Numbered from the stretch's first letter, positions 4,476-64,000 are shown. The stretch is 64,000 bases of DNA from an uncultured Acidimicrobiia bacterium (GCA_963714375.1 CAVQOG010000008.1:413171-477170), one strand, 5' to 3'. Notes: a model not told the origin generated them from the sequence alone. Program-made: numbers and translations.

Positions 4476-4545
4476 TCGGTCATCGGTTGTCTGACGTCTG
4501 ACGTCTGACGTCTGACGTCTGATGTCGGTCGTCGGTGATCGTTCG
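4476..4545. repeat. Phased 7-bp tandem array, 10 units
   Basis: tcggtca tcggttg (tctgacg)x4 tctgatg tcggtcg tcggtga tcgttcg. Confidence 0.9.
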
Positions 4546-4563
4546 GCCCCTTAGGCTCAGCCC

Positions 4564-5310
4564 ATGCTCAGCTTCCGGCTCCTCGGTATTCCCGTCGGTG
4601 TCCACGTGACGTTCCTGCTCATCGTGGTGCTTGGCCCGAGGGACTCCGCCATCTCGATGGCGTTGTGGGTCGTCGCGGCCTTCCTTGCGATCATCCTTCA
4701 CGAATTCGGACATGCCCTCACCGCCCGCGCATTCGGTGCCGAGGGTGTCAACGTAACGTTGTACGCACTGGGCGGACTGACGTCCTACACCACGAGACAG
4801 CAGATTTCACATGGCAAGTCCTTTGTGATCTCGGCAGCGGGTTCCGGAATAGGGATAGTTGCAGGACTCGCTCTTGTCGGTCTTGGGCGACTCGATCTCT
4901 TCGACGCGTGGCCAGTCGAGATTGTCGATTTCATCGGGTACTTCGTCTTCGTTGCTCTGGTGTGGGGCGTGTTGAACTGGATTCCGGTCCTTCCGCTCGA
5001 CGGCGGGCACATGGCGCAACACTTCATTGCGATCTTCAATGAAGAATGGGCTCCTCTGATCGCCCAGATTGTGACGTGGCTCGCCGTTGCTGTCATCGTT
5101 CCAGTGGCACTCGTCAACGGCTACACGTTTGCAGCTGTGATCGTCGTCGTGTTCGCGTTCATGGGGTATCGGGAGTACCAGCGTCAGAAGAAAACGCCGA
5201 TGACCGATGACTCACGACCGACAACCGACCCGGAGACACCGCGACCGGTACCCCCGGCGCCTCCGACCCCGCCCCAACCTCCGCCCGAGCCTCCGGTATT
5301 CCCCATCTGA
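4564..5310 (+). CDS. Site-2 protease (peptidase M50 family) with Pro-rich tail
   Basis: HEFGH zinc motif, NWIPVLPLDGGH motif, several hydrophobic helices. Confidence 0.85.
   Translation: MLSFRLLGIPVGVHVTFLLIVVLGPRDSAISMALWVVAAFLAIILHEFGHALTARAFGAEGVNVTLYALGGLTSYTTRQQISHGKSFVISAAGSGIGIVAGLALVGLGRLDLFDAWPVEIVDFIGYFVFVALVWGVLNWIPVLPLDGGHMAQHFIAIFNEEWAPLIAQIVTWLAVAVIVPVALVNGYTFAAVIVVVFAFMGYREYQRQKKTPMTDDSRPTTDPETPRPVPPAPPTPPQPPPEPPVFPI
5196..5230. repeat. 7-bp array inside the M50 protease tail, 5 units, inverted relative to the flanking arrays
   Basis: gccgatg accgatg actcacg accgaca accgacc, which encodes PMTDDSRPTTD. Confidence 0.75.
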
Positions 5311-5368
5311 TTTCTGAAGTCGGTCATCGGTCATCGGCCATCTGACTTCTGACTTCTGACTTCTGATT
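5306..5368. repeat. 7-bp array, 9 units, containing the M50 stop codon
   Basis: tctgatt tctgaag tcggtca tcggtca tcggcca (tctgact)x3 tctgatt. Confidence 0.9.
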
Positions 5369-5602
5369 TCCTGTGCGAATTGGCTAGCACCCTCCATATA
5401 CTCCCGCCTAGGTTTTCCCGACCGAACCCGCTGGTACCCGGAGGCCGTCTGAGCTGTGCTCAGATTGCTGTTGTGCTGGAAGTGGTTCACACATGGGATC
5501 GGCTCTGTCCGCCTTTGGCGACGGTGTCGATTTTCGTTCGTCAGAACTCCGATACCCGGGTGTCGGGTCGGAGTGCGTCAACAAGAGAGACGGAAGAGCA
5601 AC

Positions 5603-9759: not shown

Positions 9760-9787
9760 GCTGAAAGCTGAAAGCTGAAAGCTGTAA
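9760..9787. repeat. 7-bp array, 4 units, between tuf and rpsJ
   Basis: (gctgaaa)x3 gctgtaa. Confidence 0.85.
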
Positions 9788-9811
9788 GCAAACGAACGAA
9801 GAGAGTTTCAA

Positions 9812-10758: not shown

Positions 10759-11539
10759 AAAGCTCACCGCGGAGCTCTACACCGCAGATGGCACATCCAA
10801 GGGAACCGTTGACCTGAACCCTGACGTGTTCGGCATCGAACCGAACACTGCAGTCATGCATCAGGTCGTCACCGCCCAACTCGCAGCCAAGCGGGCAGGC
10901 ACACACTCCACCAAGACACGAGCCGAGGTTCGAGGCGGTGGTCGCAAGCCGTGGGCCCAGAAAGGCCTCGGACGTGCCCGCCACGGATCCATCCGTTCCC
11001 CACAATGGGCGGGCGGTGGCGTTGCCCACGGTCCCAAGCCCCGTGATTACAGCCAGCGGACACCAAAGAAGATGCGTCGTCTTGCACTTCGGAGTGCACT
11101 CTCGGTCCGTGCCGCAGACGCTCAGATCAAGGTTGTCGAGGATTTCGCAGCGTGGGCCGAGCCCAAGACGAAGAAGGCGACCGCATTGCTTGCGGCCATG
11201 GGGGTCACGGGCAAGGTGCTTCTCATTGCAGAGGACCACGAACGGACAGCTATCAAGTCCTTCCGCAATCTTGACCACGTGATCGCTCACAACCTTGGCC
11301 AGGCCAACACGTATGACGTGCTGTGGGCCGACACGATCATCATGAGCCAGGGAACGCTTGAACTCGGTCAGGGCGCCCCTCGTGGCACCGCCGAACACGC
11401 CGCCGGTGCGGAAGAAGTCAGAAGTGCGCCGACGACCGACGACCGACGACCGATGACCGACTCAGAAAGCGGAGCCACAGATGCCGAAGCTGAAAGCCAA
11501 GAGCTAAAAGCTAAAAGCTCTGACGAGGTGGCATCGTGA
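10751..11539 (+). CDS. rplD: 50S ribosomal protein L4 with a repeat-containing C-terminal extension
   Basis: [33 protein letters not shown]. 262 aa, of which the last ~58 aa are low complexity. Confidence 0.96.
11428..11523. repeat. Two 7-bp arrays (5 units each) inside the rplD extension
   Basis: 11428-11462: gccgacg accgacg accgacg accgatg accgact. 11489-11523: gctgaaa gccaaga gctaaaa gctaaaa gctctga. Confidence 0.85.
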
Positions 11540-11823
11540 AGAATCCTCGCGACATCATTTTTGAGCCTGTCGTATCCGAAAAGTCATACGACCTTGTTGC
11601 AGATGCCAACAGCTACACGTTTGTCGTACACCCGCGATCAAACAAGACCGAGATCAAGGAAGCAATCCAGACAATCTTCGACGTGAAGGTTGTCTCCGTC
11701 AACACGATGAACCGTCAAGGCAAGCGGAAGCGAACCGGGTACACGATCGGGAAGCGCAAAGACACCAAGCGCGCCGTCGTCACCCTCGCTGACGGCGATG
11801 CCATAGACGTGTTCGAGGTATAG
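11536..11823 (+). CDS. rplW: 50S ribosomal protein L23
   Basis: [24 protein letters not shown]10 operon position. Confidence 0.96.
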
Positions 11824-11826
11824 ACC

Positions 11827-13304: not shown

Positions 13305-14509
13305 TGGGGCAAAAAAGCCATCCATACGGTCTGCGCCTCGGAATTGCCACTGATTGGACGGCGCGCTGGTACAGCGAGAAGGAATACGCCGCAAATGTGT
13401 TCGAGGACTACAAGATCCGTACGTTCTTGACAACCGAGCTCAAGCGCGGGGCACTGTCCCGCATCGACATCGAGCGCATCGGTGACAAGAAGGTCCAGGT
13501 CGATGTCCACACGGGTCGCCCGGGTGTTGTCATTGGCCGAGGCGGATCTGAGGCAGAGCGCATGCGCGCCGGTCTCGAGAATCTCTCTGGACGCAGAGTG
13601 AAGTTCAACGTCATCGAAGTTCACAACCCCGAGCTCGATGCAACCCTGCTTGCGCGCAGCGTTGCCGACCAGCTTGAAGGTCGTGTCTCGTTCCGTCGTG
13701 CGATGAAGCGAACGGTGTCAACCGCGCTCAAGGCCGGTGCTGAGGGCGTTCGCGTCCAGGCAACGGGCAGGCTGGGCGGTGCAGACATGGGCCGGCGCGA
13801 GTGGTATCTCGAGGGCCGAGTTCCCCTCCATACGCTTCGTGCAGACATTGACTACGGCGAAGCGACGGCGTCAACCACAGTTGGTGCTATCGGCGTGAAA
13901 GTCTGGGTTTACAAGGGCGACGTGATGAAGCGTCACGGTTCTGCAGCTGGTAAGGCTGCAGCCGAAGCCCGTTTGGCAGCCGGTGGCAAGCCTGAGCGCA
14001 GCCGTCGCAAGTCGATCAAGGCTCGTGCCGAGGAAGCAGCAGGAGCAGGCCGTGAAAGCCGGATCATCGAGGCTGGTGGCGGCAAGCGTGTCGTCGAGGC
14101 TGGTGGTGGCAAGCGCAGTTCACGACTGATCGAAGCGGGTGGAGGCAAGAAGGTCACAGCGGCCGAAGCAGAAGCAGAGCTGGAAGAAGCGAGAGAAGCT
14201 GTCAGCTCACAGCTCACAGCTGACAGCCCAGCACCAGAAGCCGCTGACGAAGATGTCGCTGGCGTGGCAACCCCGAGGGACACCGAAGCAGTGACGGAAG
14301 AGGTTGCGTCTCCTGACGGAGACGATGCAGTTGGCGAGCCAACTGCTGCTCCGGATGCTCAAGCTGAAAGCGGCGAGGCGTCTGCTGGCGCAGACGTTGC
14401 AGTTTCTGCCGAAACTGCTACTGCTGCTCCGGATGCTGGAGCTGAAAGCGGAGAGCTGAAAGCTGAAAGCAGCGAACCGGCCGAGCGCAGCGAGGACGGT
14501 GAAGCCTGA
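13304..14509 (+). CDS. rpsC: 30S ribosomal protein S3 with a very long C-terminal extension
   Basis: [36 protein letters not shown], then ~190 extra low-complexity residues (401 aa total). Confidence 0.95.
14198..14232. repeat. 7-bp array inside the rpsC extension
   Basis: gctgtca gctcaca gctcaca gctgaca gcccagc, which encodes [11 protein letters not shown]. Confidence 0.8.
14441..14475. repeat. 7-bp array inside the rpsC extension
   Basis: gctgaaa gcggaga gctgaaa gctgaaa gcagcga, which encodes [11 protein letters not shown]. Confidence 0.8.
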
Positions 14510-24169: not shown

Positions 24170-24817
24170 ATGAAGAAGAGCGCAATTGCAGCTGTTGTCC
24201 TACTTGTCGCCGCGGCGTGCAGCTCAAGCAGTACCGATACCACGACGACGATCGCTGGCGGAGCTGGAGCCACCACCACGACTTCTGCTGCGTCCGATAC
24301 GACGGTCACCACCACCACGACGACCGAGGCACCTCCAGACGAGCCAGCGGCAGATGGTCTTGCTGGGTGTGTCCTTGGGACGTGGGAACTCGATAGCCAA
24401 CACTTCTTCGATCAGCTCGCTGATGAACTTGCCGAAGAGGATGAGGGCGCTGAGTTCGAGTACCTCGGCGGTGCGTATCAGATTGCCGCAATGCCAGATG
24501 GAACCTTCACGGCCAACCGCATTGATTGGTCATTCGGCGCCGTTTCTGACTTCGGTGAGATTGAGATAACGATGAATCACCTACAGGAAGGCACGTACAC
24601 CGTTGATGGCGGCACGATGTCGACGAGCATCCCTGCAGGTGGAGAACCCGCCGACCTGGAGATCAAGATCGACGGCGTGCCATTCGACTTTCCCGGCGGA
24701 GTCAACCCCATTGAACCGCCCGATGCCTCGTTCGAATCGGCTGTCCCCGACTGCAGTGATGAAGCACTGACTGTCACTGCTGACGGCTACACCTCAATCT
24801 GGAACCGCGTCGGCTAA
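24170..24817 (+). CDS. Putative lipoprotein with Thr-rich linker
   Basis: MKKSAIAAVVLLVAAAC lipobox, Thr runs, acidic beta-rich domain. Confidence 0.75.
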   Translation: MKKSAIAAVVLLVAAACSSSSTDTTTTIAGGAGATTTTSAASDTTVTTTTTTEAPPDEPAADGLAGCVLGTWELDSQHFFDQLADELAEEDEGAEFEYLGGAYQIAAMPDGTFTANRIDWSFGAVSDFGEIEITMNHLQEGTYTVDGGTMSTSIPAGGEPADLEIKIDGVPFDFPGGVNPIEPPDASFESAVPDCSDEALTVTADGYTSIWNRVG

Positions 24818-24820
24818 TCG

Positions 24821-24875
24821 CGCGTACCCAGGGTATGAACCGACCGCGACGGTGGGTCACAGCCCACAGAACGCC
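24821..24875. repeat. 55-bp REP-like dispersed element, copy 1
   Basis: Its reverse complement matches 45618-45672. It contains GTGGG...CCCAC and TACC...GGTA palindromes. Confidence 0.85.
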
Positions 24876-24898
24876 GGATCGGTCGCCCCGGTGCGAAC

Positions 24899-29017: not shown

Positions 29018-29547
29018 TGACCACAGAAGCATCCGAGCAGGCTGTACCCGAGCAGGCTGTACCCGAGCAGGCTGTACCCGAGCAGGCTGTACCCGAGCAG
29101 GCTGCACCCGAGCAGGCTGCACCCGAGCAGGCTGCACCGCAGCAGGCTGCACCCGATGCGGCAGCAGCCCTGCAGCCGCGTCGTCGCAGGTCCAAGAGGA
29201 CGATTTCGCACGGCCAGGTCCATATCAAGGCGAGTTTCAACAACACGATTCTTACGATCACGGATCAGGACGGCAAGGTTGCCGCATGGACCTCAGGCGG
29301 ATCGGTCGGCTTCAAGGGCTCACGCAAGTCGACCCCCTATGCCGCCCAGGTTGCAGCCGAACAGGCAGCCCGCAAAGCAGGCGAAATGGGAATCCGCAAG
29401 CTTGACGTCATCGTCCGAGGTTCGGGCTCGGGTCGCGAGACGGCGATCCGAACACTTCAGAACATGGGTATTGAGATAACGGGCATCAAGGACGTCACAC
29501 CGGTACCGCACAACGGCTGCCGCCCGAAGAAGCGGAAGGGTCGTTAG
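29017..29547 (+). CDS. rpsK: 30S ribosomal protein S11 with a repetitive N-terminal extension
   Basis: ATG overlaps the rpsM stop. [33 protein letters not shown]. Confidence 0.97.
29035..29154 (+). repeat. In-frame 15-bp tandem repeat, 8 units, in rpsK
   Basis: (gagcaggctgtaccc)x4, then three gagcaggctgcacc(c/g) units and one cagcaggctgcaccc. Encodes (EQAVP)4(EQAAP)3QQAAP. Confidence 0.95.
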
Positions 29548-31500: not shown

Positions 31501-31520
31501 CGAGCTTCGCTCGCCAAACA

Positions 31521-31548
31521 GCTTTCAGCTTTCGGCTCACAGCTTTCG
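31521..31548. repeat. 7-bp array, 4 units, after the rplQ stop
   Basis: gctttca gctttcg gctcaca gctttcg, the reverse complement of the gctgaaa type. Confidence 0.8.
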
Positions 31549-31562
31549 GCTTCGGTAATCTG

Positions 31563-32733: not shown

Positions 32734-33501
32734 GTGCCGACCTATCGCATGGACCTCGCCTATGACGGATCGTCATTCTTCGGTTATGGGATCCAGAAGG
32801 ACGTGCGAACCGTTCAGGGGGAGCTCGAACGAGCACTCCGACCCCACACTGCTGGCGCCTCGACGCAAGTTGCCGGACGCACGGACAAAGGCGTGCATGC
32901 CTCACAACAGGTCGTCTCGTTCGTGTCGCGTGAGATCAACACCGACTATGTCCTCCGGTCCCTCAACAAGCAGCTCGGGCCCGAGATCGCCGTCCAGAGT
33001 CTGACCGAGGTCGATCGGGATTTTCATGCTCGCTTCTCGGCCACGGGTCGTGCCTACCGGTACCAGATCCTCAACTCGAACATCCACGACCCACTCACGA
33101 GTACCACGACTTGGCATGTGCGGGATCAAATCGATGTCAGACTGATGAACCTGGCGGCTGATCATCTCGTTGGGGAGCACGATTTTGCGGCATTCTGCCG
33201 CCGCTACCGGGATCGGTCCACCATCCGACGGCTTGAATGGGCTCGGTGGAAACGCGTAGGGGATCGCCTCGATCTATCGATCGGTGCTGCCGCATTCTGT
33301 CACCAGATGGTTCGCTCGATCGCCGCATTCTGTGTTGCTGTCGGGACCGGTGAGCTGGATCCTGACACGGTCCCCGAGATTCTTGTATCGGGCGATCGGA
33401 GTCTCACCAAAGGTGTCGCTCCTGCGCACGCCCTGTTTCTTGTCGCGGTCTCGTACGGAGACGAACCCCTTCCACGCCCGGCGTGGGCCGTATTCCGATG
33501 A
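32734..33501 (+). CDS. truA: tRNA pseudouridine(38-40) synthase
   Basis: LAYDGS, AGRTDKGVHA, FHARFSA, FCHQMVR. Confidence 0.96.
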   Translation: MPTYRMDLAYDGSSFFGYGIQKDVRTVQGELERALRPHTAGASTQVAGRTDKGVHASQQVVSFVSREINTDYVLRSLNKQLGPEIAVQSLTEVDRDFHARFSATGRAYRYQILNSNIHDPLTSTTTWHVRDQIDVRLMNLAADHLVGEHDFAAFCRRYRDRSTIRRLEWARWKRVGDRLDLSIGAAAFCHQMVRSIAAFCVAVGTGELDPDTVPEILVSGDRSLTKGVAPAHALFLVAVSYGDEPLPRPAWAVFR

Positions 33502-33657
33502 CCGACGTCCGACGTCCGATGTCCGATGTCCGATGTCCGATGACCGTGTTCCGATGACCGAAAGCCCAGATCTGACGTCCGACGTCTGACGTCTGAAATC
33601 TGACTTCGTCTCCGCTTTCTTATCGGTAATCGGAATTCGGTAGTCGGTTATCGGTCC
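33494..33657. repeat. Composite 7-bp array: 16 units, a short spacer, then 5 inverted units, between convergent truA and ilvA
   Basis: 33494-33605 holds tccgatg/accgacg/tccgacg/tctgacg-type units in register. 33623-33657 is tcggtaa tcggaat tcggtag tcggtta tcggtcc. Confidence 0.92.
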
Positions 33658-37300: not shown

Positions 37301-37447
37301 CTGTTCAGCGCCCGCCCTTGGCATAGCCAAGGCGACGAGGAAGAGGGAGTATCGAATCGTTCGGCGGATGCCCTCTCGGCCATTCACGGTCGTAACGGTC
37401 TGGACGAAATCCGGGGAGTGATCTCCGGGACAGAACCCAGTCCGGTG
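37301..37447 (+). ncRNA. glmS riboswitch-ribozyme (GlcN6P-activated self-cleaving RNA)
   Basis: AGCGCC cleavage motif (A37307/G37308), P1 CCTTGGC/GCCAAGG, GACGAGG, ATCGA...TCGGCGGATG, P2 AGAGGG/CCCTCT and a P4 arm with GTGA loop. Lies directly upstream of glmS. Confidence 0.93.
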
Positions 37448-37518
37448 TGAAGGCGTGAACCTCCCGGTTCACGTTGTCGCCGTATCTCTGTCTCACCGAC
37501 AAAAGGAGATCGCGCGCG

Positions 37519-45594: not shown

Positions 45595-45617
45595 GGGAGC
45601 GAACGACATCACACCAC

Positions 45618-45672
45618 GGCGTTCTGTGGGCTGTAGCCCACCTTGTGCGTGGGTTCATACCCTGGGTACGCG
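45618..45672. repeat. 55-bp REP-like dispersed element, copy 2
   Basis: ggcgttctgtgggctgtagcccaccttgtgcgtgggttcataccctgggtacgcg, inverted relative to 24821-24875. Confidence 0.85.
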
Positions 45673-45691
45673 GGATGGGTGGTGCTGACGC

Positions 45692-47766: not shown

Positions 47767-47775
47767 ACACAGGAC

Positions 47776-47803
47776 CCAACGGTTAACGCCCAACGCTCAA
47801 CGC
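47776..47803. repeat. 7-bp array (caacg type) overlapping the amidohydrolase stop
   Basis: ccaacgg ttaacgc ccaacgc tcaacgc. Confidence 0.65.
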
Positions 47804-48864
47804 ATGACGAGGGCTCCGGCTCGCATTATCACGGACGGGTGGTCGAGCACAGAGAGGTCTTCGCGGGGGTCACCAGGAAAGATGACCAGGTCGGCAGGCT
47901 GGCCGAACTCGATTCCGGGAAGTCCCAGGTATTCCCTCGCGATCCATGACCCGGACGCCAGCGCTGCTTCGGCCGGCAGCCCGAAGGCGTGGAGTAGTCG
48001 GATCTCGTCCGCCACAACCCCGTGTGGTGTCATACCGGCGTCGGTACCCGCGAGGATCCGGACACCAGCGTCATGAGCTTGTCTGATGCGTTCTCCGTGG
48101 TCCTCCATGCGTGCGTTGAACTCGGCAGCTCCGTTGGGACCGAGCATGTCCGGGGTCATGCCACGCACGAGGTCGTCGATAATCGCCGTCGGGGTCCATG
48201 TCATGTCGGCGCTCGCCATCTGGGCGACCTGACTCTCCTCAATGACGTTTCCGTGTTCGATGCCGTCGAATCCAGCGTCGATCGCGAGCTGAATGGACTC
48301 GGGGATGGACGCGTGCATAGTGATGCGGCCCCCTCTCGAATGGACCTTCTCGGCTGTCTCGGTCAGGGCCTCGAGTTGATAGTTCGTGGTCAATCGGGAA
48401 TCGCGAATGAAGTCACCGATCACCTTGACCCAGCCGCCCGAGTGGTCGAGTTCCTCAAGCGCCGCTTCATGGAGTCCGGCGCCCTCCACCTCTCGCGCCA
48501 GTCCGGGGAAGTATGCCCCGGGAGCGGTCAGGAATCGACCTGCGGTGATCACCGTCGGTAGCCCGTCGCCGTTGCCCAGACCAAACGATGCATGGTTCGG
48601 GCTGCCGGGCTCGCGGACCGATAGGACACCGGCTTCAAGGTGCTGGCGTGCCGACGCACGGACCAGCTCGTCGTCGGACCCCTCGGCCAGGGGGCTCGCC
48701 AACGCCAGGTGGGCGTGTGCATCAACGAGACCAGGGATCGCATAGCCACCTTCATGGATTGACATGGCATCCGGGGCCTCATCGACCCATACACCGCCCT
48801 TGACCCAGAGATTCGTCGACACGCCCCCCGGCAGGACACTCGTTGCAAGGTGCATGGCACCCAT
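47797..48864 (-). CDS. Amidohydrolase family protein
   Basis: PGLVDAHAH metal motif, GWVKVIGD, IEHG, AGTDAG, GQPADLV. Start placed at MGAMH, after GGAG. Confidence 0.88.
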   Translation of the reverse strand: MGAMHLATSVLPGGVSTNLWVKGGVWVDEAPDAMSIHEGGYAIPGLVDAHAHLALASPLAEGSDDELVRASARQHLEAGVLSVREPGSPNHASFGLGNGDGLPTVITAGRFLTAPGAYFPGLAREVEGAGLHEAALEELDHSGGWVKVIGDFIRDSRLTTNYQLEALTETAEKVHSRGGRITMHASIPESIQLAIDAGFDGIEHGNVIEESQVAQMASADMTWTPTAIIDDLVRGMTPDMLGPNGAAEFNARMEDHGERIRQAHDAGVRILAGTDAGMTPHGVVADEIRLLHAFGLPAEAALASGSWIAREYLGLPGIEFGQPADLVIFPGDPREDLSVLDHPSVIMRAGALVMR

Positions 48865-48933
48865 TCGATTCTCCGTTCTCTCGCTTCGGTGGAGACAATA
48901 CTTCAGCGAATCTGTCGCGGCTCTCGCCTGAAG

Positions 48934-48954
48934 TCCATCGTCCAACGCCCAACG
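48934..48954. repeat. Short 7-bp array (caacg type)
   Basis: tccatcg tccaacg cccaacg. Confidence 0.5.
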
Positions 48955-48979
48955 CCAATTGCATCGGAATATCTTCCGC

Positions 48980-49035
48980 TTAGCACTCGTTGCAGGAGAC
49001 TGCTAGTATTGGCAGTCGTAAGCATTGACTGCTAA
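48980..49035 (+). promoter_or_regulatory. Two tandem CIRCE elements (HrcA operators)
   Basis: TTAGCACTC-N9-GACTGCTAG (48980-49006) and TTGGCAGTC-N9-GACTGCTAA (49009-49035), directly upstream of groES. Confidence 0.92.
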
Positions 49036-49058
49036 CGCAACGCGAAGGAGAAAGTTGG

Positions 49059-51053: not shown

Positions 51054-51137
51054 TCCGATATCCGATGACCGATATCCGATATCCGATGACCGATGACCGA
51101 TGACCGAAATCCGTAATCCGACGTCCGACGTCCGACG
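51054..51137. repeat. 7-bp array, 12 units, between convergent groEL and the DoxX-like gene
   Basis: tccgata tccgatg accgata tccgata tccgatg accgatg accgatg accgaaa tccgtaa (tccgacg)x3. Confidence 0.92.
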
Positions 51138-51142
51138 TCTGC

Positions 51143-54240: not shown

Positions 54241-54257
54241 TGCTCGCTTCTCTCGCA

Positions 54258-54379
54258 GCTTTCAGCTTTCCGCTCTTCGCTTCTCTGACTTCGGCTACCC
54301 GACTGCGTCGGGTCGCTTGGGTCCAGCAAGCCGGACGTCTGACTTCTGACTTCTGACTTCTGACGTCCGTAATCCGACA
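54258..54379. repeat. Two 7-bp arrays after the decarboxylase stop
   Basis: 54258-54285: gctttca gctttcc gctcttc gcttctc. 54331-54379: ccggacg (tctgact)x3 tctgacg tccgtaa tccgaca. Confidence 0.82.
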
Positions 54380-55671: not shown

Positions 55672-57252
55672 CTACGCCGATTCGGCCCGTTCACGGTGGC
55701 GGACCAAACCCATCAAGAGTCCGTCAGATATGGCTGTCCAGGATGCATCGATGATGTTCTGGTGGACGCCGACGCTGCCCCACGTTGAGTCGATGTCCGT
55801 GTGTTCGGTGAGGACGCGGACCCTCGCGCTCGTGCCGTCGGAGCTATCAAGGTCTCGCACGCGGTAGTCGGTCAGCTTGATCGAATCGACATTGGGGTAC
55901 CGGTCGGCCAACGCCGCCCGCAGCGCACGGTCAAGCGCCGAAACCGGGCCATCCCCTTCACGGGTAGAAACGATCCGCTTGCCGTCTACGACGACTTTCA
56001 CCGTTGCCTCGGCCACGACATCACCGCCACGATGCTCAACGAAGACGCGGTAGGACTCGACGTCGAAGAAGTCCTGATCCCATCCTGCCGCCTCGCGTGC
56101 CAGCAGCTCGAAGGATCCACCGGCTGATTCATAGGTGTACCCAAGGTGTTCGCGTTCTTTGATCCGATCGATCACCAACTGCGCTTGTGACGATGTCAGG
56201 TCGAGTCCCGACTCTTTCGCTTTCGCCACGACTGTCGACCTACCGGCGAGCTCGGATACAACCATGCGAGTCTCGTTGCCTACCGCGGTTGGTGCCATGT
56301 GCTCGTACGCATCGGGTCTCCGAGCCATGGCTGATGTGTGTAGCCCTGCCTTGTGCGTGAATGCTGATGCACCGACGTAGGGGAGATGTGGGTCAAGTGT
56401 CAGATTCACGACATCGGCAATGTGATGGGAGATCGCCGTCAACCTGCCGAGCCGATCTTTCGGGATTGTGTCGTATCCCATCTTGAGACTGAGGTTCGGA
56501 ATGACCGAACACAAGTCGGCATTGCCAGTTCGTTCGCCGTATCCGTTCACACAGCCCTGAACCTGCAAGACCCCATTGCGAACCGCCGTGAGCGAGTTCC
56601 CGACGGCCAAGCCTGTGTCATTGTGGAAGTGGCATCCGAAGGTTCCACCTGAAATGGCTTCCGTCACCTCACCGACCGTCTGCTCGACCTCATGGGAGAG
56701 AAACCCGCCGTTGGTATCGCACAGAACGAGACGTGTGGCTCCTGCATCGTGGGCCGCTTGGAGCACCGCGAGAGCAAAATCTGGGTTGGAGCGATAGCCG
56801 TCGAAGAAATGCTCGGAATCGAAGAACACTTCGCGATCGTGCGACCGAAAGAAGGCGACCGTGTCGCCCACCATTGCGACTGCTTCGTCGAGTGAGGTGC
56901 GAAGGGCGTGTTCAACGTGGTAGTCCCACGACTTCCCGACCAGACACACGGTCCCGGTTTCGGCCGCAAGAATCTTGTGTACTTGCTCGTCATCCTCGGC
57001 AGTGACGCCAGCCTTTCGTGTCGCACCGAAAGCTACGAGCTTGGCATTCTGCATGGACAGTTCGGTGCGGGCCATCTGGAAGAACTCGTCCTCCTTTGGG
57101 TTCGCACCGGGCCATCCGCCCTCCACATAGGCAACCCCGAGATCGTCGAGCAGGCGGCAGACGGCGAGCTTGTCCTTTGGGGTCAGCGAGATGCCTTCTT
57201 GCTGAGTCCCATCTCGGAGGGTGGTGTCGTAGATCTCGACTGTCTGATTCAT
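55672..57252 (-). CDS. cimA: Citramalate synthase (LeuA/CimA family)
   Basis: YDTTLRDGTQQEG, EGGWPGANPK, FFDSEHFFDGY, HFHND, YGERTGNAD and a C-terminal regulatory domain. Confidence 0.9.
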   Translation of the reverse strand: MNQTVEIYDTTLRDGTQQEGISLTPKDKLAVCRLLDDLGVAYVEGGWPGANPKEDEFFQMARTELSMQNAKLVAFGATRKAGVTAEDDEQVHKILAAETGTVCLVGKSWDYHVEHALRTSLDEAVAMVGDTVAFFRSHDREVFFDSEHFFDGYRSNPDFALAVLQAAHDAGATRLVLCDTNGGFLSHEVEQTVGEVTEAISGGTFGCHFHNDTGLAVGNSLTAVRNGVLQVQGCVNGYGERTGNADLCSVIPNLSLKMGYDTIPKDRLGRLTAISHHIADVVNLTLDPHLPYVGASAFTHKAGLHTSAMARRPDAYEHMAPTAVGNETRMVVSELAGRSTVVAKAKESGLDLTSSQAQLVIDRIKEREHLGYTYESAGGSFELLAREAAGWDQDFFDVESYRVFVEHRGGDVVAEATVKVVVDGKRIVSTREGDGPVSALDRALRAALADRYPNVDSIKLTDYRVRDLDSSDGTSARVRVLTEHTDIDSTWGSVGVHQNIIDASWTAISDGLLMGLVRHRERAESA

Positions 57253-57263: not shown

Positions 57264-57295
57264 AACGAAAGAACCCTCCGGGTTTCGGAGGGTTC
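57264..57295 (-). terminator. Attenuator terminator upstream of cimA
   Basis: Minus strand reads GAACCCTCCG-aaacc-CGGAGGGTTC-TTTCGTT, a 10-bp perfect stem ending about 12 nt before the cimA ATG. Confidence 0.8.
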
Positions 57296-61342: not shown

Positions 61343-61344
61343 GA

Positions 61345-61473
61345 GCTTTCAGCTTTCAGCTCACAGCTTTCGGCCAGCCGAAATCTGGGGAGCCACGCGG
61401 AAGGGCTTTCATCTTGCGCACTGATCGAACTCTGACTGGCTGTGAGCTGTGAGCTTTGAGCTGTGAGCTCAAG
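61345..61473. repeat. Pair of mutually inverted 7-bp arrays after guaA
   Basis: 61345-61372: gctttca gctttca gctcaca gctttcg. 61439-61473: gctgtga gctgtga gctttga gctgtga gctcaag. Confidence 0.85.
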
Positions 61474-61549
61474 GGCCATAGTCCTCAAGCCCTATGCGGC
61501 GGGATCCGATATGCACTAGTAGAACCAATGCGGCAACGCAGGGACATGA

Positions 61550-64000
61550 ATGGCTGTGCAATACGATCCCGACCTCGAGAGTCTGTTCCGTGAGGAACTC
61601 ACTGAACGGGCGTCATCCCTGGCCGAAGGCGCCAAGGCCGTCATCGACGGCCAGGTGACCATCGAGCTCGCAGGGCGTATGGTGCGCGAGGGCCACACCA
61701 TCAAGGGCACCGGTCGGGTCATGGGACACGAGGTGATCGCCAGGGGAGGCGAGACATGTGAGGTTGTGTGGCGTTGGATCCAACACGGTGAGGTCCAACC
61801 CGCTGTGATGCTCGGAAGGGCACTCAGTCTCTTGGTTGAGGCGCTACCGGATGCCTTGGGCGGCGATCCCGATGGGGTGTCCGGTGCGATTGAGGCAATT
61901 CGAACCCTGATCGCGGAACCTGCCAGACTCGCCGAGCTGCCAGAGCCGATGTATGCAGAACCAGCCGAGGTGAAGACGTACGACGTACACCTGACATCAG
62001 ACGTCGGACAACAGACGTCGGACGTCGGACCGAGAGACTCCGAGGACGAACCGCCATCCGATGACGATCCGCCGCCTTCCGATGATGTACCACCGACGTC
62101 CGACGTCCGACGTCCGACGTCCGATATTGAAGCGCCGACGTCCGATGAAGGACCGCCTTCCGATGATGGAATACCGACGTCCGACGTCCGACGTCCGACG
62201 TCCGACGAACCGCCGACCTCCGACGACGAATCGTTCGACAGCCTGGTGTTCGAGCCAGGCCCCGATGGCAAGCTCCGGATGCCTGTCGTCACCATTGAGA
62301 TCGTTAGATCTGCCTTCGCGGGCGGAGCAGGGCACGCTGCGGCTGCTCATCGCACACAGCCCGATGAGCTAGCCGCCGCTGCCCGACCTGTGCATGTATC
62401 CGACCCCTTGGGGAGAATCGACGGGGAAATCGACGGGGAAATCGACATCTCGTTCCTCGACATTGAAGGGTTGACGCTCGACGGTGACGCGATCCCGGTC
62501 TATGGACTGGGGGGTCTCGCCAGTGCCGTCGAAGCGTGGGCCGCCGAGGAGTCAGTTCCTGTCAATGCGGGCCGGTTGTATCGAATGATCAATGATGCCG
62601 CGGCCCTCCGCATGGATCTGCAGTCTCTCAGCACGCACGCTGGTCACGTTCTCCAGACCGCCGAGGCGAAGTCGATTCCCGCAGCCGAAGGCGCGCTTGA
62701 GGCGATCGAAACTGCAAGACGCTCGTCGTTGGAACTTGAGAACCGTGCCTTGGGGTTGACCTCCCTCTCCATGGAATCCACCTTGTCAACGCTTCCGCAA
62801 GTGATGAAGTACCTCGCCAAGAAGTGTCAAAAGCGTGTTGAGCTTGTCGTGACAGGTGAAGAGACCATTGTTGATAGGCAGTTGGTTGATCGCGTCGGTG
62901 AAGTCGTACGCCAGTTGATGGTGAATGCGGTCGTACACGGAATCGAGCCTCACGACGACCGCGTTCGAGCAGGCAAGTCTTCAAGAGGAACCGTCTCCAT
63001 AGGGTTTGAAAGCGACGGACAGCACGTGACGATCGAGGTGGCTGACGATGGAGCCGGCATCGACTGGACGGCGGTACGAGAAACCGCGTTGGGGCTCGGG
63101 CTCGTGGAAGGTGACCCAACGTCAGAGGAGTTGCGGTCTGCATTGTTCTCCGAAGGGTTCTCAACGAACCCGCAATCATCTGAGTTCACAAGCGAAGGAG
63201 ATGGACTGTGGCGCATCTCCCAGATCGTCGAAGAGGTGTATGGGTCGCTTGCAATGACGTCGTCGTCTGACGGCGTGGCGTTCACGATCACCATCCCGGC
63301 GCACCGTGCCCTCCAAAGAGCCCAGCTCTTCGAGGCTGGCGGTCGTTCTTGGGGTCTTCCGGCGGTAACTGTTGTCGGGTCGGTTCCCATCGGCGATGTT
63401 GAGATCGAGGTCTCGGAGCGAGGCTCAACGATCGCCTTCGACGATGGGCGGATTCCGTACTCATCTTTCGCGACGGTTGCGGGACTCGATGTTGAGGGCA
63501 TGCCATCTGAGGTAATGATCATTCAGTGTCCCATTGGTCCGATTGCGCTTGCAGTCGACAAGATGCTCGATGTCCAGGAGGTCGTCACGAAGGATCTGGG
63601 TCCGCTCCTGTCCGGATCCACTGTGGTCACCGGAGTGGCACTTCTCGGCGGCGATGACACTGTGCTGCTTGTTGATGCCGGGCGTCTTGCGTCGAACCTT
63701 CAGGACGACGAAACTCGAGCGTCGGGACCGGTCAGCACAGTGCTGGTCGTCGACGACAGCCAAGGAGTTCGCCAGGTCGTGTCCGGTGTGCTTGCATCAC
63801 ACGGGTTTGCAACGCTCTCGGCAGGTTCGGTCGCGGAAGCTCTGTCGGTGCTCGGTGAGAGCACGATCGATGCGTTGGTCGTTGATTTCTCGATGCCCCG
63901 GGCCGATGGTGTGGCTCTTATCCACCTTGTTCGACAACGATACGGGAGTATTCCGATCGTGATGCTGTCGGGCGTGGCGTCTGAGGAGGACAAGGAGCGC
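61550..64000 (+). CDS. CheA-like hybrid histidine kinase (Hpt-linker-HATPase-CheW-REC), 3' end beyond the window, missing from the ORF track
   Basis: Hand translation is open to 64000: Hpt GHTIKG, N-box QLMVNAVVHGIE, ADDGAGID, LFSEGFST, a CheW-like segment, and REC VLVVDDS...DFSMP...IVMLSG. Confidence 0.88.
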   Translation, partial: MAVQYDPDLESLFREELTERASSLAEGAKAVIDGQVTIELAGRMVREGHTIKGTGRVMGHEVIARGGETCEVVWRWIQHGEVQPAVMLGRALSLLVEALPDALGGDPDGVSGAIEAIRTLIAEPARLAELPEPMYAEPAEVKTYDVHLTSDVGQQTSDVGPRDSEDEPPSDDDPPPSDDVPPTSDVRRPTSDIEAPTSDEGPPSDDGIPTSDVRRPTSDEPPTSDDESFDSLVFEPGPDGKLRMPVVTIEIVRSAFAGGAGHAAAAHRTQPDELAAAARPVHVSDPLGRIDGEIDGEIDISFLDIEGLTLDGDAIPVYGLGGLASAVEAWAAEESVPVNAGRLYRMINDAAALRMDLQSLSTHAGHVLQTAEAKSIPAAEGALEAIETARRSSLELENRALGLTSLSMESTLSTLPQVMKYLAKKCQKRVELVVTGEETIVDRQLVDRVGEVVRQLMVNAVVHGIEPHDDRVRAGKSSRGTVSIGFESDGQHVTIEVADDGAGIDWTAVRETALGLGLVEGDPTSEELRSALFSEGFSTNPQSSEFTSEGDGLWRISQIVEEVYGSLAMTSSSDGVAFTITIPAHRALQRAQLFEAGGRSWGLPAVTVVGSVPIGDVEIEVSERGSTIAFDDGRIPYSSFATVAGLDVEGMPSEVMIIQCPIGPIALAVDKMLDVQEVVTKDLGPLLSGSTVVTGVALLGGDDTVLLVDAGRLASNLQDDETRASGPVSTVLVVDDSQGVRQVVSGVLASHGFATLSAGSVAEALSVLGESTIDALVVDFSMPRADGVALIHLVRQRYGSIPIVMLSGVASEEDKER
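61997..62207. repeat. Three 7-bp arrays (both orientations) inside the CheA-like linker
   Basis: 61997-62031: tcagacg tcggaca acagacg tcggacg tcggacc. 62092-62126 and 62173-62207: accgacg plus tccgacg runs. Confidence 0.88.

What the first reader, a model, noticed from the sequence alone, without database searches (positions are those of the whole stretch)
4476..62207. Dispersed family of phased 7-bp tandem arrays targeted to gene 3' ends
Seen: about 21 arrays of 3-16 units, starting at 4476, 5196, 5306, 9760, 11428, 11489, 14198, 14441, 31521, 33494, 33623, 47776, 48934, 51054, 54258, 54331, 61345, 61439, 61997, 62092 and 62173. Unit sequence varies (TCTGACG, TCCGACG, ACCGATG, TCTGACT, GCTGAAA, GCTCACA, CCAACGC), yet different units sit side by side in exact 7-nt register. 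Period is therefore conserved more than sequence. Many unit junctions form palindromes (GACGTC, GATATC, AGCT). Most intergenic arrays overlap or lie within about 20 nt of a stop codon: M50, truA and the amidohydrolase overlap theirs, and rpoC, rplQ, ilvA, doxX, the decarboxylase and guaA are close. Both orientations often occur together. I saw none in the 22.2-28.5 kb accessory block, and the window has no transposase. Known precedent: heptameric STRR repeats of filamentous cyanobacteria. Inference: an active process seeds or expands 7-nt units near gene ends in this lineage, acting as a REP-like mRNA 3'-end signal, a protein-binding lattice or a recombination substrate.
Basis: partly seen in the sequence, partly recalled or inferred. 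Interest (0 to 1): 0.8.

Follow-up and report, generated by a model that had tools for sequence, protein, structure and literature searches.

The report
Seven-base repeat arrays behind genes
This Acidimicrobiia genome segment is peppered with short runs of 7-base repeats that sit just behind stop codons or inside floppy protein tails. This is a known but still unexplained class of bacterial repeat, here found in a new lineage and also in its likely phages.

Summary
The window holds 23 period-7 arrays against 1.6 expected from shuffles, and no other period is enriched. Ten of 14 array loci lie within 30 nt of a stop codon (2.0 expected).

- About ten arrays are coding. They lie in the C-terminal tails of L4, S3 and M50, and in the linker of a CheA-like kinase at least 1.8 kb from that gene's 3' end.
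- The palindromic unit junctions are no more frequent than chance.
- The empty accessory block is not significant.

New findings:
- Arrays have a preferred size of 25-35 nt (4-5 units).
- Neighbouring arrays are often inverted copies that form imperfect hairpins.
- Each genome has its own few unit families.
- The trait is on or off between sister Acidimicrobiia lineages.
- Bona fide phage contigs carry the same families, flush against stop codons.

This matches the syndrome described for cyanobacterial STRR and Xanthomonas GGGAATC heptamers, whose function is unknown. My best reading is slippage-driven arrays, homogenised between loci, that depend on an unidentified trans-acting determinant and survive only in tolerated 3' slots. 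A selected RNA or protein-lattice role is not excluded. Verdict: new member of a known kind, moderate interest.

The parts
510..534 (.). Weak, degenerate heptamer array (TGAGATC-like, about 3.7 units) overlapping the rpoB stop codon at the rpoB-rpoC junction.
4476..4545 (.). Composite in-register array: TCGGTCA x2, TCTGACG x4, one TCTGATG, then TCGGTCG-like units. It fills the rpoC-M50 spacer, starting 14 nt after the rpoC stop. It folds to -45.5 kcal/mol (z = -4.2).
   Evidence: the orthologous array in L001 has different units
5197..5228 (+). CCGATGA/CCGACAA units inside the M50 ORF, encoding the C-terminal tail TPMTDDSRPTTD. It is conserved as a longer array in L001 and L008.
5304..5370 (.). 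Nine-unit array that begins in register at the TCTGA containing the M50 stop codon: TCTGATT, TCTGAAG, TCGGTCA x2, TCGGCCA, TCTGACT x3, TCTGATT. A related metagenome contig lacks the 54-nt stretch 5311-5364 (three other bases, CCG, stand in its place), which removes everything after the first unit except the last two units' shared bases.
9760..9789 (.). GCTGAAA x4.3 in the tuf-rpsJ spacer, 29 nt after the tuf stop and 22 nt before the rpsJ start.
11429..11460 (+). CCGACGA x4.6 inside the L4 (rplD) ORF, forming part of a C-terminal extension.
   Evidence: a metatranscriptome contig from a relative spans it
11487..11519 (+). AGCTGAA/AGCTAAA x4.7 inside the L4 tail, 20 nt before the stop codon that overlaps the rplW start.
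14198..14228 (+). AGCTGTC/AGCTCAC x4.4 inside the long acidic C-terminal tail of S3 (the ORF is 401 aa).
14440..14470 (+). AGCTGAA x4.4 inside the S3 tail, 39 nt before the stop codon that overlaps the rplP start.
31519..31552 (.). CAGCTTT x4.9, starting 18 nt after the rplQ stop. It is 30/31 identical to the array at 61344, including the order of unit variants.
33494..33604 (.). About 16 units (TCCGATG / ACCGACG / TCCGACG / TCTGACG) overlapping the truA stop codon, in the convergent truA / ilvA-like gap.
33622..33655 (.). ATCGGTA x4.9, the inverted partner of the previous array, 9 nt from the ilvA-like stop codon. Together the two fold into a long imperfect hairpin (-58 kcal/mol, z = -3.8).
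47775..47809 (.). nnnAACG x5 (CCCAACG-type, weak) overlapping the amidohydrolase stop codon, in the convergent gap with the second M50 gene.
48933..48956 (.). GTCCAAC/GCCCAAC x3 (weak) at the 5' end of the amidohydrolase gene. It has the same family and orientation as the array at 47775.
51054..51139 (.). Twelve in-register units (TCCGATA / ACCGATG ... TCCGACG x3) between the groEL terminator-like hairpin and the doxX stop codon (3 nt away).
54256..54281 (.). CAGCTTT x2.7-3.7, starting 15 nt after the decarboxylase stop codon.
54331..54367 (.). GACGTCT/GACTTCT x5 in the same convergent gap, separated from the previous array by a plain hairpin.
61344..61374 (.). AGCTTTC AGCTTTC AGCTCAC AGCTTTC GGC, starting 1 nt after the guaA stop codon. 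This is the left arm of a hairpin.
61436..61470 (.). GCTGTGA x4.4, the inverted right arm. The two arms plus a 58-nt spacer fold to -66 kcal/mol (z = -4.8).
61993..62030 (+). GACGTCG-type units inside the CheA-like kinase ORF (linker region, encoding TSDVG).
62093..62124 (+). CCGACGT x4.6 (perfect) in the same linker, encoding PTSDVRRPTSD.
62174..62207 (+). CCGACGT x4.9 (perfect) in the same linker. It lies 81 nt from the previous array, so the two keep codon register rather than 7-nt register.

Best explanation
These are a lineage-specific family of heptanucleotide simple-sequence arrays. They belong to the class described as STRR in heterocystous cyanobacteria and as 'heptameric long SSRs' in Xanthomonas, Burkholderia and others.

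Origin (inferred). Arrays are born, resized and homogenised in place by slipped-strand mispairing in 7-nt register. Whole arrays, or their unit variants, are copied between loci by ectopic conversion or template switching. That gives each genome a few unit 'dialects'. The process needs an unidentified trans-acting determinant that is present in some Acidimicrobiia lineages and absent from their sisters. It also acts on, or is exploited by, resident phages.

Placement (partly shown). Arrays persist only where a 7-nt indel or a 30-nt insert is harmless. Such places are directly behind stop codons, intercistronic spacers, convergent gaps, and in-frame positions in disordered protein tails and linkers. 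They are rare in promoter-bearing divergent gaps and in folded coding sequence.

Effect (inferred). They are transcribed as 3'-UTR or intercistronic RNA. Inverted pairs give long imperfect hairpins. In a genome that shows no excess of hairpin-plus-U-tract terminators, these could serve as 3'-end barriers. In my reading that is a by-product or an occasional exaptation, not the reason the family exists.
For: - Period specificity: 23 arrays at period 7 against 1.6 in shuffles, and 0-7 at other periods. In array-rich lineages, exact-run counts at lag 7 are 30-40 times those at neighbouring lags.
- In-place turnover: orthologous arrays in the window, L001, L008 and L017 keep their position but differ in unit number and carry array-wide unit changes, for example CCGACGA versus CCGACAG in the L4 tail. 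Composite arrays keep register. A relative precisely lacks the stretch after M50, and that array begins in register at the stop-codon heptamer.
- Copying between loci: the arrays at 31520 and 61344 are 30/31 identical, including variant order. The array aligned as window 11465-11545 (reverse strand) and those at 14441, 31520 and 61344 carry a GCTC-type variant unit in third place, and the one at 54257 carries a similar unit shifted by one place. 'TCCGTAATCCGAC' is shared by the arrays at 51110 and 54368.
- Tolerance filter: array density is 0.17/kb in coding sequence, 1.65/kb in codirectional gaps, 3.27/kb in convergent gaps and 1.08/kb in divergent gaps. The two phage sets give the same ordering, and pooled convergent versus divergent gives P=1e-6. 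Coding arrays sit in variable tails. Array-free L4 proteins are 226-232 aa and array-bearing ones are 243-276 aa.
- On/off trait: all rich lineages fall in one L4 clade and have array-free sisters.
- No sense-strand folding advantage.
- Canonical terminators are not enriched, and none coincides with an array.
- Literature: heptanucleotides are the most abundant long-SSR class in many prokaryotes, and a polymerase-slippage explanation was proposed by Mrazek et al. 2007, as summarised in PMC4679880 and PMC4692102.
Against: - Simple local slippage from random seeds does not predict genome-specific unit families, nor that phages share them. Phage L113 carries both families seen in Acidimicrobiia locus L025.
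- Array length is peaked at 25-35 nt with a trough at 18-24 nt, rather than decaying monotonically. Length-dependent slippage models can produce a peak, however.
- In compact phage genomes, arrays start 0-3 nt after stop codons. Within a family, orientation differs between 'after stop' and 'before start' positions (P=0.013-0.024). Both points hint at transcript-level selection.
- Nothing here explains biochemically why the period is 7. One lineage and one phage also carry 8-nt arrays.
- The trans-acting determinant is inferred, not seen.
Confidence: 0.5

Rival explanations
1. Selected RNA cis-element. The arrays are 3'-UTR or intercistronic modules of about 32 nt, recognised by host machinery. 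Paired modules would act as exonuclease-blocking or terminator-like hairpins. Single modules would act as a lattice for a single-strand-binding OB-fold protein with a one-heptamer footprint, such as a cold-shock-domain protein. Phages copy the host dialect to use the same machinery.
For: - Arrays sit flush against stop codons in the host and in compact phage genomes.
- Convergent gaps are enriched over divergent gaps.
- Module size is peaked at 25-35 nt across unrelated unit sequences. Xanthomonas heptamers show a similar preference for four units.
- Inverted pairs are frequent and fold strongly, with z from -3 to -4.8.
- Orientation is asymmetric. AGCUUUC-sense arrays predominate after stop codons (13 vs 4) and GCUGAAA-sense arrays before start codons (7 vs 2).
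- Unit families are shared between host and phage.
- B. subtilis CspB binds heptamer direct repeats, one protein per heptamer (Sachs 2012 and Morgan 2007, as cited in PMC4679880).
- Phage L116 has a csp gene flanked by inverted arrays.
Against: - There is no sense-strand folding advantage across 31 regions.
- Single arrays, such as those after tuf and rplQ, fold no better than shuffles.
- Several unrelated unit families coexist in one genome, at least six in phage locus L112. That would require many factors, or one with almost no sequence specificity.
- Sister lineages do without arrays at the same essential operon junctions.
- Arrays also lie inside ORFs.
Confidence: 0.3
2. Mobile REP/REPIN-like or MITE-like element. 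A module of about 30 nt, or an inverted doublet, is copied to new sites near gene ends by a dedicated enzyme encoded elsewhere in the genome (RAYT-like HUH nuclease, transposase or reverse transcriptase).
For: - Near-identical arrays occur at distant loci with the same variant order.
- Families are genome-specific, module size is uniform, and inverted doublets sit in extragenic 3' positions.
- The phylogenetic distribution is patchy.
- One relative shows whole-array presence/absence.
Against: - Flanks, terminal motifs and target-site duplications are not conserved around arrays.
- The window contains no transposase or HUH gene.
- Orthologous arrays change by unit gain, loss and homogenisation rather than by excision or insertion.
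- Arrays are tandem repeats, not single imperfect palindromes.
Confidence: 0.08
3. Double-stranded DNA function. The arrays would be a binding lattice for a nucleoid, replication or segregation protein, or programmed recombination and slipped-DNA substrates. Where they lie in ORFs (the CheA-like kinase), they would be phase-variation switches, because 7 is not a multiple of 3.
For: - Folding energies are symmetric between strands.
- Direct arrays of one family flank the amidohydrolase gene on both sides.
- Two perfect arrays of 4.6-4.9 units lie mid-ORF in a signalling kinase, where a one-unit slip would shift the frame.
- Heptanucleotide phase variation is known in other bacteria (papers listed).
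Against: - Unit sequences are too diverse for one DNA-binding specificity.
- Placement and orientation follow transcription units, not replication.
- Most neighbouring genes are housekeeping genes, for which on/off switching makes no sense.
- The core motifs are neither avoided nor enriched outside arrays.
Confidence: 0.08
4. Chance or an assembly artefact.
For: Short-read contigs do break inside arrays.
Against: - The excess over shuffles is fifteen-fold and specific to period 7.
- An independent contig reproduces part of one array exactly.
- Orthologous arrays occur in many independent assemblies and in phage contigs.
Confidence: 0.01

Closest known systems
STRR (short tandemly repeated repetitive) heptamers of heterocystous cyanobacteria (Mazel et al. 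1990; mentioned in PMC4692102)
   Same: Both are tandem 7-nt units in a few genome-specific families, dispersed at many loci, mostly extragenic, restricted to certain lineages, and of unknown function. From memory, STRR2 is TTGGTCA, one base away from the TCGGTCA unit seen here.
   Different: The phylum differs (Actinomycetota, class Acidimicrobiia) and so do the unit sequences. Here arrays are also embedded in-frame in ribosomal-protein tails, and they are shared with phage contigs. The STRR sequences themselves were not compared with tools.
GGGAATC / GGGGA(C/T)T heptameric repeats of Xanthomonas and Nostoc (Rehm et al. 2015, PMC4692102)
   Same: The syndrome is almost identical. About 90% of those repeats are intergenic, they lie on average 28 nt behind the upstream ORF but 160 nt from the next one, four units is the modal size, about 70 occur as inverted pairs, divergent gaps are depleted, length and sequence vary between sister species at the same loci, the neighbouring genes are housekeeping, and no function has been found.
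   Different: The units here are not G-rich and cannot form G-quadruplexes. The shared preference for 4-5 units therefore argues that module size is not set by G4 formation. The window also holds several unit families rather than one.
TAACTGA direct repeats of marine Beggiatoaceae, some Cyanobacteria and Bacteroidetes (MacGregor 2015, PMC4679880)
   Same: Both are heptamer arrays of 2-6 copies at more than 100 sites per genome, including ribosomal-protein operons, with a patchy phylogenetic distribution. A cold-shock-domain protein was proposed there as a one-heptamer binder.
   Different: Those repeats lie mostly just upstream of start codons and are almost always in direct orientation. Here arrays are closer to stop codons and are often in inverted pairs.
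Heptanucleotide long SSRs in prokaryotic genomes (Mrazek, Guo and Shah 2007, as summarised in PMC4679880 and PMC4692102)
   Same: Both show a general over-representation of 7-nt units among long SSRs, including in some Actinobacteria. Polymerase slippage with a 7-nt preference was the proposed cause.
   Different: That survey did not describe Acidimicrobiia, phages, module size, inverted pairing or on/off sister lineages. I could not read the original paper; it is not held in the library.
REP / BIME / REPIN elements with RAYT transposases
   Same: Both are short, genome-specific, extragenic elements at gene 3' ends, often as inverted doublets that form hairpins, with a patchy distribution.
   Different: REPs are single imperfect palindromes with conserved ends, not tandem heptamers. 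No RAYT-like gene and no conserved flank was seen here.
Tandem repeats that create disordered protein regions in Borg elements (PMC9879509)
   Same: In both, fast-evolving tandem repeats lie in intergenic DNA and in ORFs, where they add low-complexity, disordered segments.
   Different: The Borg repeat regions described in the abstract seen lie in archaeal extrachromosomal elements, not a bacterial chromosome. Here the unit is 7 nt, so three units encode a 7-residue repeat read in all three frames.

Membership tests
Heptanucleotide long SSR / STRR-like arrays (broad class) | Head-to-tail repeats of a 7-nt unit, three or more copies, over-represented relative to other periods | tested here: met
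   23 arrays against 1.6 in shuffles; periods 4-12 give 0-7
Heptanucleotide long SSR / STRR-like arrays (broad class) | Many dispersed loci per genome, drawn from a few unit families | tested here: met
   14 loci in 64 kb, in three families: nCYGAYn, AGCTnnn and CCAACGC. Each relative has its own families.
Heptanucleotide long SSR / STRR-like arrays (broad class) | Predominantly extragenic | tested here: met
   Density is 10-20 times higher in intergenic than in coding DNA. However, about 10 of 23 window arrays are in ORF tails or linkers.
Heptanucleotide long SSR / STRR-like arrays (broad class) | Lineage-restricted, patchy distribution with length and sequence turnover between relatives | tested here: met
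STRR sensu stricto (cyanobacterial) | Host is a heterocystous cyanobacterium; units are CCCCAGT, TTGGTCA or CAACAGT (recalled from memory) | tested here: not met
   The closest genome is Acidimicrobiia bacterium UBA5794, and the units differ. This works like STRR but is not a member.
G-quadruplex heptamers (Xanthomonas/Nostoc type) | A G-tract of three or more G per unit, able to form G4 | tested here: not met
   No unit has a GGG tract
G-quadruplex heptamers (Xanthomonas/Nostoc type) | Placement just behind the upstream ORF, inverted pairs, modal size of about 4 units | tested here: met
   compared
REP/REPIN | Each copy is an imperfect palindrome of 20-40 nt with conserved sequence and conserved ends | tested here: not met
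   Copies are tandem heptamers, flanks are not conserved, and unit self-complementarity is at chance
REP/REPIN | Cognate RAYT (IS200/IS605-like TnpA) gene in the genome | not testable with these tools
   Only 64 kb of the genome is available, and no such gene lies in it
Intrinsic (Rho-independent) terminator | G+C-rich hairpin followed directly by a U-tract | tested here: not met
   No terminator-like site coincides with an array, and such sites are not above shuffle expectation
Known RNA families (Rfam) | Match to a curated covariance model | tested here: not met
   The only hit in the window is the glmS ribozyme at 37296-37453
Phase-variation contingency SSR | Repeat in a 5' coding or promoter region of a surface or variable gene; unit number polymorphic within populations | tested here: inconclusive
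   Most neighbouring genes are housekeeping genes and most arrays are 3'-proximal. The CheA-like kinase arrays are mid-ORF and perfect. No deep reads of this organism were available.

The most novel reading that the evidence does not exclude
Heptamer arrays are the cis-half of an undiscovered two-part system that varies between lineages. The other half would be a trans-acting factor: either a single-strand RNA/DNA-binding protein with a one-heptamer footprint (cold-shock-domain-like), or an enzyme that propagates repeats. This factor would recognise or generate modules of about 32 nt placed directly behind stop codons. Its specificity would drift, giving each lineage its own unit 'dialect'. 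Phages would adopt the dialect of their host. Losing the factor would erase the arrays, which would explain the array-free sister lineages.
Probability: 0.25. Interest if true: 0.85.

Novelty: new member of a known kind. Interest (0 to 1): 0.5.

Why it matters
Heptanucleotide arrays were reported in bacteria in 1990 and shown in 2007 to be the commonest long-SSR class. Nobody yet knows why the period is 7, what sets the unit sequence, or whether the arrays do anything.

This lineage adds three handles on the problem:
1. Array-rich and array-free sister lineages about 20% apart in L4 protein. Whole-genome phylogenetic profiling of these could name the determinant.
2. Non-G-rich units that show the same 4-5-unit modules, stop-codon placement and inverted pairs as the Xanthomonas G-rich repeats. 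This argues against the G-quadruplex explanation of that syndrome.
3. Phage contigs that share unit dialects with cellular genomes. This points to a cell-level cause and could help link phages to hosts.

There are also practical consequences. The arrays break short-read assemblies. They shift or extend annotated ORF ends. They add disordered tails to core proteins such as L4 and S3.

Tried and rejected
- **Sense-strand RNA selection (G-U wobble asymmetry).** I folded both strands of 31 array regions. Sense was more stable in 14 and antisense in 17 (P=0.81), so there is no support.
- **Palindromic unit cores or restriction-site-like cores.** Unit self-complementarity equals that of shuffled units. 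AGCT, GACGTC, GATATC, GTAC, GAGTC, CCWGG and TCGCGA occur at expected frequency outside arrays, so there is no avoidance signature. A restriction- or nickase-driven origin gains no support.
- **Canonical terminators at arrays.** None was found.
- **Rfam.** No family matches an array.
- **Position within codirectional gaps.** Arrays lie a median of 13 nt from the stop and 27 nt from the next start, which is not significant. They simply fill small spacers.
- **Exact-protein look-up of the M50 gene.** It is not on record.
- **Raw reads of the same organism.** Only low-share Logan contigs from two metagenomes were available, so copy-number heterogeneity could not be measured. Metatranscriptome contigs come from relatives and show only that array-bearing sequence is present in RNA libraries.
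- **Near-identical phage contig pairs.** They were too similar (99.6-100%) to test conservation of arrays against flanks. The one indel between L105 and L114 is not in an array.
- **Host of phage L116.** Cultured phages give at most 28% portal identity, so the host stays unknown.
- **Mrazek et al. 2007.** The paper could not be read; it is not held.
- **SARP heptameric promoter repeats.** These are spaced, not contiguous, and are not comparable.

Full report

Yes. A lag-p self-match scan finds 17-23 arrays at period 7, depending on threshold, and 0-7 at every other period from 2 to 15. Block shuffles give 1.6 on average and at most 4.

The units fall into three families:
- nCYGAYn: TCTGACG, TCCGACG, TCCGATG, ACCGATG, TCCGATA, TCTGACT, and the reverse complement TCGGTCA.
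- AGCTnnn: AGCTTTC / GCTGAAA, AGCTCAC / GCTGTGA, AGCTAAA.
- A weak CCAACGC family.

Composite arrays keep exact 7-nt register across unit changes. The array at 4476-4545 is contiguous, 33494 to 33571 is 77 nt, and 51054 to 51117 is 63 nt.

The arrays are not an assembly artefact. An independent Logan contig reproduces 4368-4521 without a difference, and unrelated assemblies carry orthologous arrays.

**2. Where is the window from, and what are the neighbouring genes?**

G+C is 59%. The closest reference genome is Acidimicrobiia bacterium UBA5794, with 84% M50 protein identity and 87-90% DNA identity over rpoB to fusA.

The window runs through rpoB/C, the str/S10/spc/alpha ribosomal operons, secY-adk-map, glmS with its ribozyme, alr, the tsaEBD genes, groES/EL, leuA, trpS, guaB-like and guaA genes, and a CheA-like kinase. 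No transposase was found.

**3. Corrections to the description**

Five of the listed arrays are coding. The arrays at 11429 and 11487 lie in a C-terminal extension of L4, and those at 14198 and 14440 lie in a long acidic tail of S3. Both ORFs run through the arrays to stop codons that overlap the next start codon. The array at 5197 lies in the M50 tail.

The three arrays at 61993-62207 are not intergenic. They lie in the linker of a + strand ORF that starts at 61550 and has no stop codon before the window ends at 64000. That ORF has HATPase_c, CheW and REC domains, and the arrays encode PTSDVRR repeats. At least 1.8 kb of the ORF lies downstream of them.

The 'palindromic junctions' are what base composition predicts. 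Observed units have a mean self-complementarity mismatch of 3.00, against 3.09 for shuffled units, and near-palindromic units make up 12% in both sets.

The array-free 14.5-31.5 kb stretch contains little intergenic DNA, so zero arrays there is unremarkable.

A further weak array overlaps the rpoB stop codon at 510-534.

**4. Placement**

In the window, 10 of 14 array loci lie within 30 nt of a stop codon, against 2.0 expected (P<0.0002). When random placement is confined to non-coding DNA, the figure is 8 of 8 against 2.3 expected (P=0.0002). Proximity to start codons is at chance. All five convergent gene junctions in the window carry arrays.

Array density by context, in arrays per kb:

| Data set | Coding | Codirectional gaps | Convergent gaps | Divergent gaps |
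|---|---|---|---|---|
| Window plus 15 array-rich relatives | 0.17 | 1.65 | 3.27 | 1.08 |
| AGCT-family phage loci | 0.16 | about 3.2 | 5.21 | 0.25 |
| Larger phage set, 32 loci | 0.24 | 2.60 | 2.85 | 1.29 |

In small operon spacers the arrays simply fill the gap. They lie a median of 13 nt from the stop and 27 nt from the next start, which is not significant.

The gene calls behind these statistics are my own codon-usage caller and are approximate. For example, tuf had to be added by hand.

**5. Anatomy**

*Module size.* With a tolerant detector, array length is bimodal. There is a chance-level heap at 13-17 nt, a trough at 18-24 nt, and a peak of 52 of 85 arrays at 25-35 nt, which is 4-5 units. 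Few arrays exceed 35 nt, and most of those are composites. An independent phage set peaks at 29-35 nt.

*Inverted pairs.* An array's neighbour within 200 nt is within two mismatches of its reverse complement in 21 of 32 cases, against 109 of 355 for distant pairs in the same locus (P=1e-4). The two arms have similar lengths. The resulting hairpins are strong:

| Region | Energy (kcal/mol) | z-score |
|---|---|---|
| rpoC-M50 spacer | -45.5 | -4.2 |
| truA / ilvA-like gap | -58 | -3.8 |
| downstream of guaA | -66 | -4.8 |

Single arrays behind tuf, rplQ and the second M50 gene fold no better than shuffles.

*Strand symmetry.* Across 31 regions with a defined sense strand, sense RNA was the more stable in 14 and antisense in 17 (P=0.81). 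G-U wobble therefore gives no sign of RNA-level selection.

*Terminators.* Canonical hairpin-plus-U-tract terminators are not enriched in this DNA, and none coincides with an array. Arrays often follow a plain hairpin, as after groEL and after rpoC in L025 and L001. In the window's rpoC-M50 spacer no such plain hairpin is present and only the arrays follow the rpoC stop.

**6. Evolution**

*In-place turnover.* The window, L001 and L008 keep arrays at the same three sites around M50 but differ in unit number and block structure. The L4-tail array is CCGACGA x4 in the window and CCGACAG x4 in L017. That is an array-wide substitution, the signature of concerted evolution.

A related contig from a freshwater metagenome, about 83% identical in M50, lacks the 54-nt stretch 5311-5364 behind M50. 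The window array starts in register at the TCTGA that contains the M50 stop codon.

*The same slots are filled in different lineages with unrelated units.* The L4 tail carries arrays in the window, L017, L020, L021, L025 and L032, with four or five different unit types. Array-free L4 proteins are 226-232 aa long and array-bearing ones are 243-276 aa. The tuf-rpsJ spacer behaves in the same way.

*Copying between loci.* The arrays at 31520 and 61344 are 30/31 identical, including the order TTC, TTC, CAC, TTC. One search aligned eight AGCT-family arrays. The one entered as window 11465-11545 (reverse strand) and those at 14441, 31520 and 61344 have a GCTC-type variant unit in third place. The array at 54257 has a similar unit shifted by one place. 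Flanks are not conserved. 'TCCGTAATCCGAC' links the arrays at 51110 and 54368.

*On/off trait.* On an L4 tree, every array-rich locus falls in one clade, and that clade also holds array-free sisters: L018/L019, L023/L026, L039 and L052. Clades outside it have 1 array in about 220 kb. In the poor lineages, even two-unit exact runs at lag 7 are at the level of lags 5, 8 and 10. In the rich ones they are 5-40 times higher. The groups were defined by array count, so the contrast is partly circular. The bimodality is still stark.

One rich lineage (L025) and one phage (L116) also carry 8-nt arrays, so the rule is not absolute.

**7. Phages**

Exact-pattern scans of IMG/VR found the following:

| Pattern | Viral contigs with a match |
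|---|---|
| AGCTTTCAGCTTTCAGCTNNCAGCT | 20 |
| (GAGTCRA)x3 | 23 |
| (TCTGACK)x3 | 67 |
| (CCGATGW)x3 | 3 |
| (TCCGACG)x3 | 1 |

These are genuine phages of several kinds. L116 has large and small terminase subunits, a Mu-like portal, an endolysin and a holin. L103, L108, L112 and L113 have portal, capsid, protease or terminase genes. They carry up to 17 period-7 arrays per 10 kb.

In L116 and other phage contigs, arrays start 0-3 nt after stop codons. Phage L113 carries GAGTCGA and CAGTTGA/CAGTCGA arrays, the same two families as Acidimicrobiia locus L025. G+C among array-rich phage contigs ranges from 0.41 to 0.70, so the phenomenon is broader than one host clade. Hosts are unknown.

Within a family, orientation depends on context. 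For the AGCT family, AGCUUUC-sense arrays predominate within 25 nt after stop codons (13 vs 4) and GCUGAAA-sense arrays within 40 nt before start codons (7 vs 2; P=0.013). The TCTGAC family shows a comparable asymmetry (P=0.017). Part of this is trivial, because an orientation that contains UGA cannot lie in an ORF and will itself end any ORF that runs into it.

**8. What is known**

Heptanucleotides were reported as the most abundant long-SSR class in many prokaryotes. A slippage bias tied to the DNA polymerase was proposed (Mrazek et al. 2007, read only through PMC4679880 and PMC4692102).

The Xanthomonas GGGAATC repeats show the same syndrome point for point. They are 89-93% intergenic, lie on average 28 nt behind the upstream ORF, have four units as the modal size, include about 70 inverted pairs, are depleted in divergent gaps, vary in length and sequence between sister species, and have no known function.

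The TAACTGA repeats of Beggiatoaceae differ in lying upstream of start codons. That paper noted that B. subtilis CspB binds heptamer direct repeats with one protein per heptamer.

I found no paper on such arrays in Acidimicrobiia or in phages.

**9. Interpretation**

Shown:
- a period-7-specific array family;
- stop-codon-proximal and 3'-gap placement;
- 4-5-unit modules and inverted pairing;
- genome-specific dialects;
- in-place turnover;
- near-identical arrays at distant loci;
- an on/off distribution among relatives;
- presence in phages.

Inferred:
- Slipped-strand mispairing resizes arrays and ectopic copying spreads variants.
- A trans-acting determinant exists.
- Selection removes arrays from promoters and from folded coding sequence.

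I put 0.5 on this mutational-origin-plus-tolerance model, with hairpins as a by-product or an occasional exaptation. I put 0.3 on a selected RNA element or single-strand protein lattice. That reading better explains the flush placement in compact phages, the orientation asymmetry and the shared dialects. It fits poorly with the many families per genome, the weak structure of single arrays and the array-free sisters. A REP/RAYT-like mobile element and a dsDNA or phase-variation role get about 0.08 each. Artefact gets 0.01.

**10. Verdict**

This is a real and well-marked feature. It is a new member, in Acidimicrobiia and their probable phages, of a known but mechanistically unexplained class. 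Interest is moderate. The sighting itself is not surprising to a specialist. However, the non-G-rich units undercut the G-quadruplex reading of the Xanthomonas case. The on/off sister lineages and the phage sharing also make the old question 'what makes heptamer arrays?' testable by comparative genomics.

Noticed in passing
window 24817-24876 and 45617-45676: A 60-nt dispersed inverted repeat, 85% complementary. Both copies lie in intergenic gaps just upstream of + strand genes (an adenylate-cyclase/TPR protein and tsaD). There is no Rfam match, and folding is only weakly better than shuffles.
   Followed up: partly
window 29029-29156: A 15-nt tandem repeat (GCACCCGAGCAGGCT x8.5) at the start of the ORF after rpsM. 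It encodes (V/A)PEQA pentapeptide repeats and looks like an N-terminal extension of ribosomal protein S11.
   Followed up: no
window 37296-37453 (+): A glmS ribozyme (Rfam RF00234, 92 bits) directly upstream of glmS (37474-39342).
   Followed up: yes
window 48975-49045: Two CIRCE-like inverted repeats (TTAGCACTC-N9-GACTGCTAG and TTGGCAGTC-N9-GACTGCTAA) upstream of groES. This looks like an HrcA operator; the consensus was recalled from memory.
   Followed up: no
window 47775-47809 and 48933-48956: The amidohydrolase gene is on the - strand, while its immediate neighbours are on the + strand. It is flanked at both ends by direct arrays of the same CCAACGC-type family. This could mark an inserted cassette or a recombination-prone segment.
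   Followed up: no
window 61550-64000 (+): A CheA-like hybrid kinase (HATPase_c, CheW, REC) carries two perfect CCGACGT arrays of 4.6-4.9 units in mid-ORF. A one-unit slip would shift the reading frame, so this gene could be phase-variable.
   Followed up: partly
window 14064-14151: The S3 tail also contains three copies of a 27-36-nt repeat encoding (I/V)EAGGGK(R/K). At 401 aa, the S3 ORF is much longer than I recall for bacterial S3 proteins (roughly 220-280 aa; not checked here).
   Followed up: no
window 57271-57295 (-): The only strong hairpin-plus-U-tract site in this half of the window lies in the leader upstream of leuA (55672-57252, - strand). It may be an attenuator.
   Followed up: no
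L025 4190-4650: A 460-nt repetitive block behind a stop codon. It consists of an 8-nt array (AGTAGCYC x11) followed by inverted CTGNGCTA units organised in a 37-nt higher-order repeat of about 9 copies. So period 8 also occurs.
   Followed up: partly
L116 2636-2942 (phage contig IMGVR_UViG_3300046697_000185): A phage cold-shock-protein gene is bracketed by GCTGATA x4 upstream and AGCTTTC x4.6 downstream, which are inverted relative to each other. The same phage has 8-nt AGGGACCA arrays and a conserved AAAAAC motif after three of its arrays.
   Followed up: partly
L098-L210 (IMG/VR viral contigs): Heptamer arrays are common in uncultivated phage genomes over a wide G+C range (0.41-0.70). There are 314 arrays in 897 kb of the array-selected loci, against about 22 per other period. 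I found no description of this in the literature searched.
   Followed up: partly
L008 (QQUL01000183.1, labelled Armatimonadetes MAG): This 3.6-kb contig carries the array-encoded M50 tail and TCGGTCA/TCTGACG arrays typical of the window's lineage. It is probably an Acidimicrobiia fragment that was mis-binned.
   Followed up: no
L108 4017-5123 and L100 4284-5318: Transposase-family matches occur in two array-rich phage contigs: a strong match to phrog_506 in L108 and a weak match to phrog_513 in L100. No link to the arrays was established.
   Followed up: no
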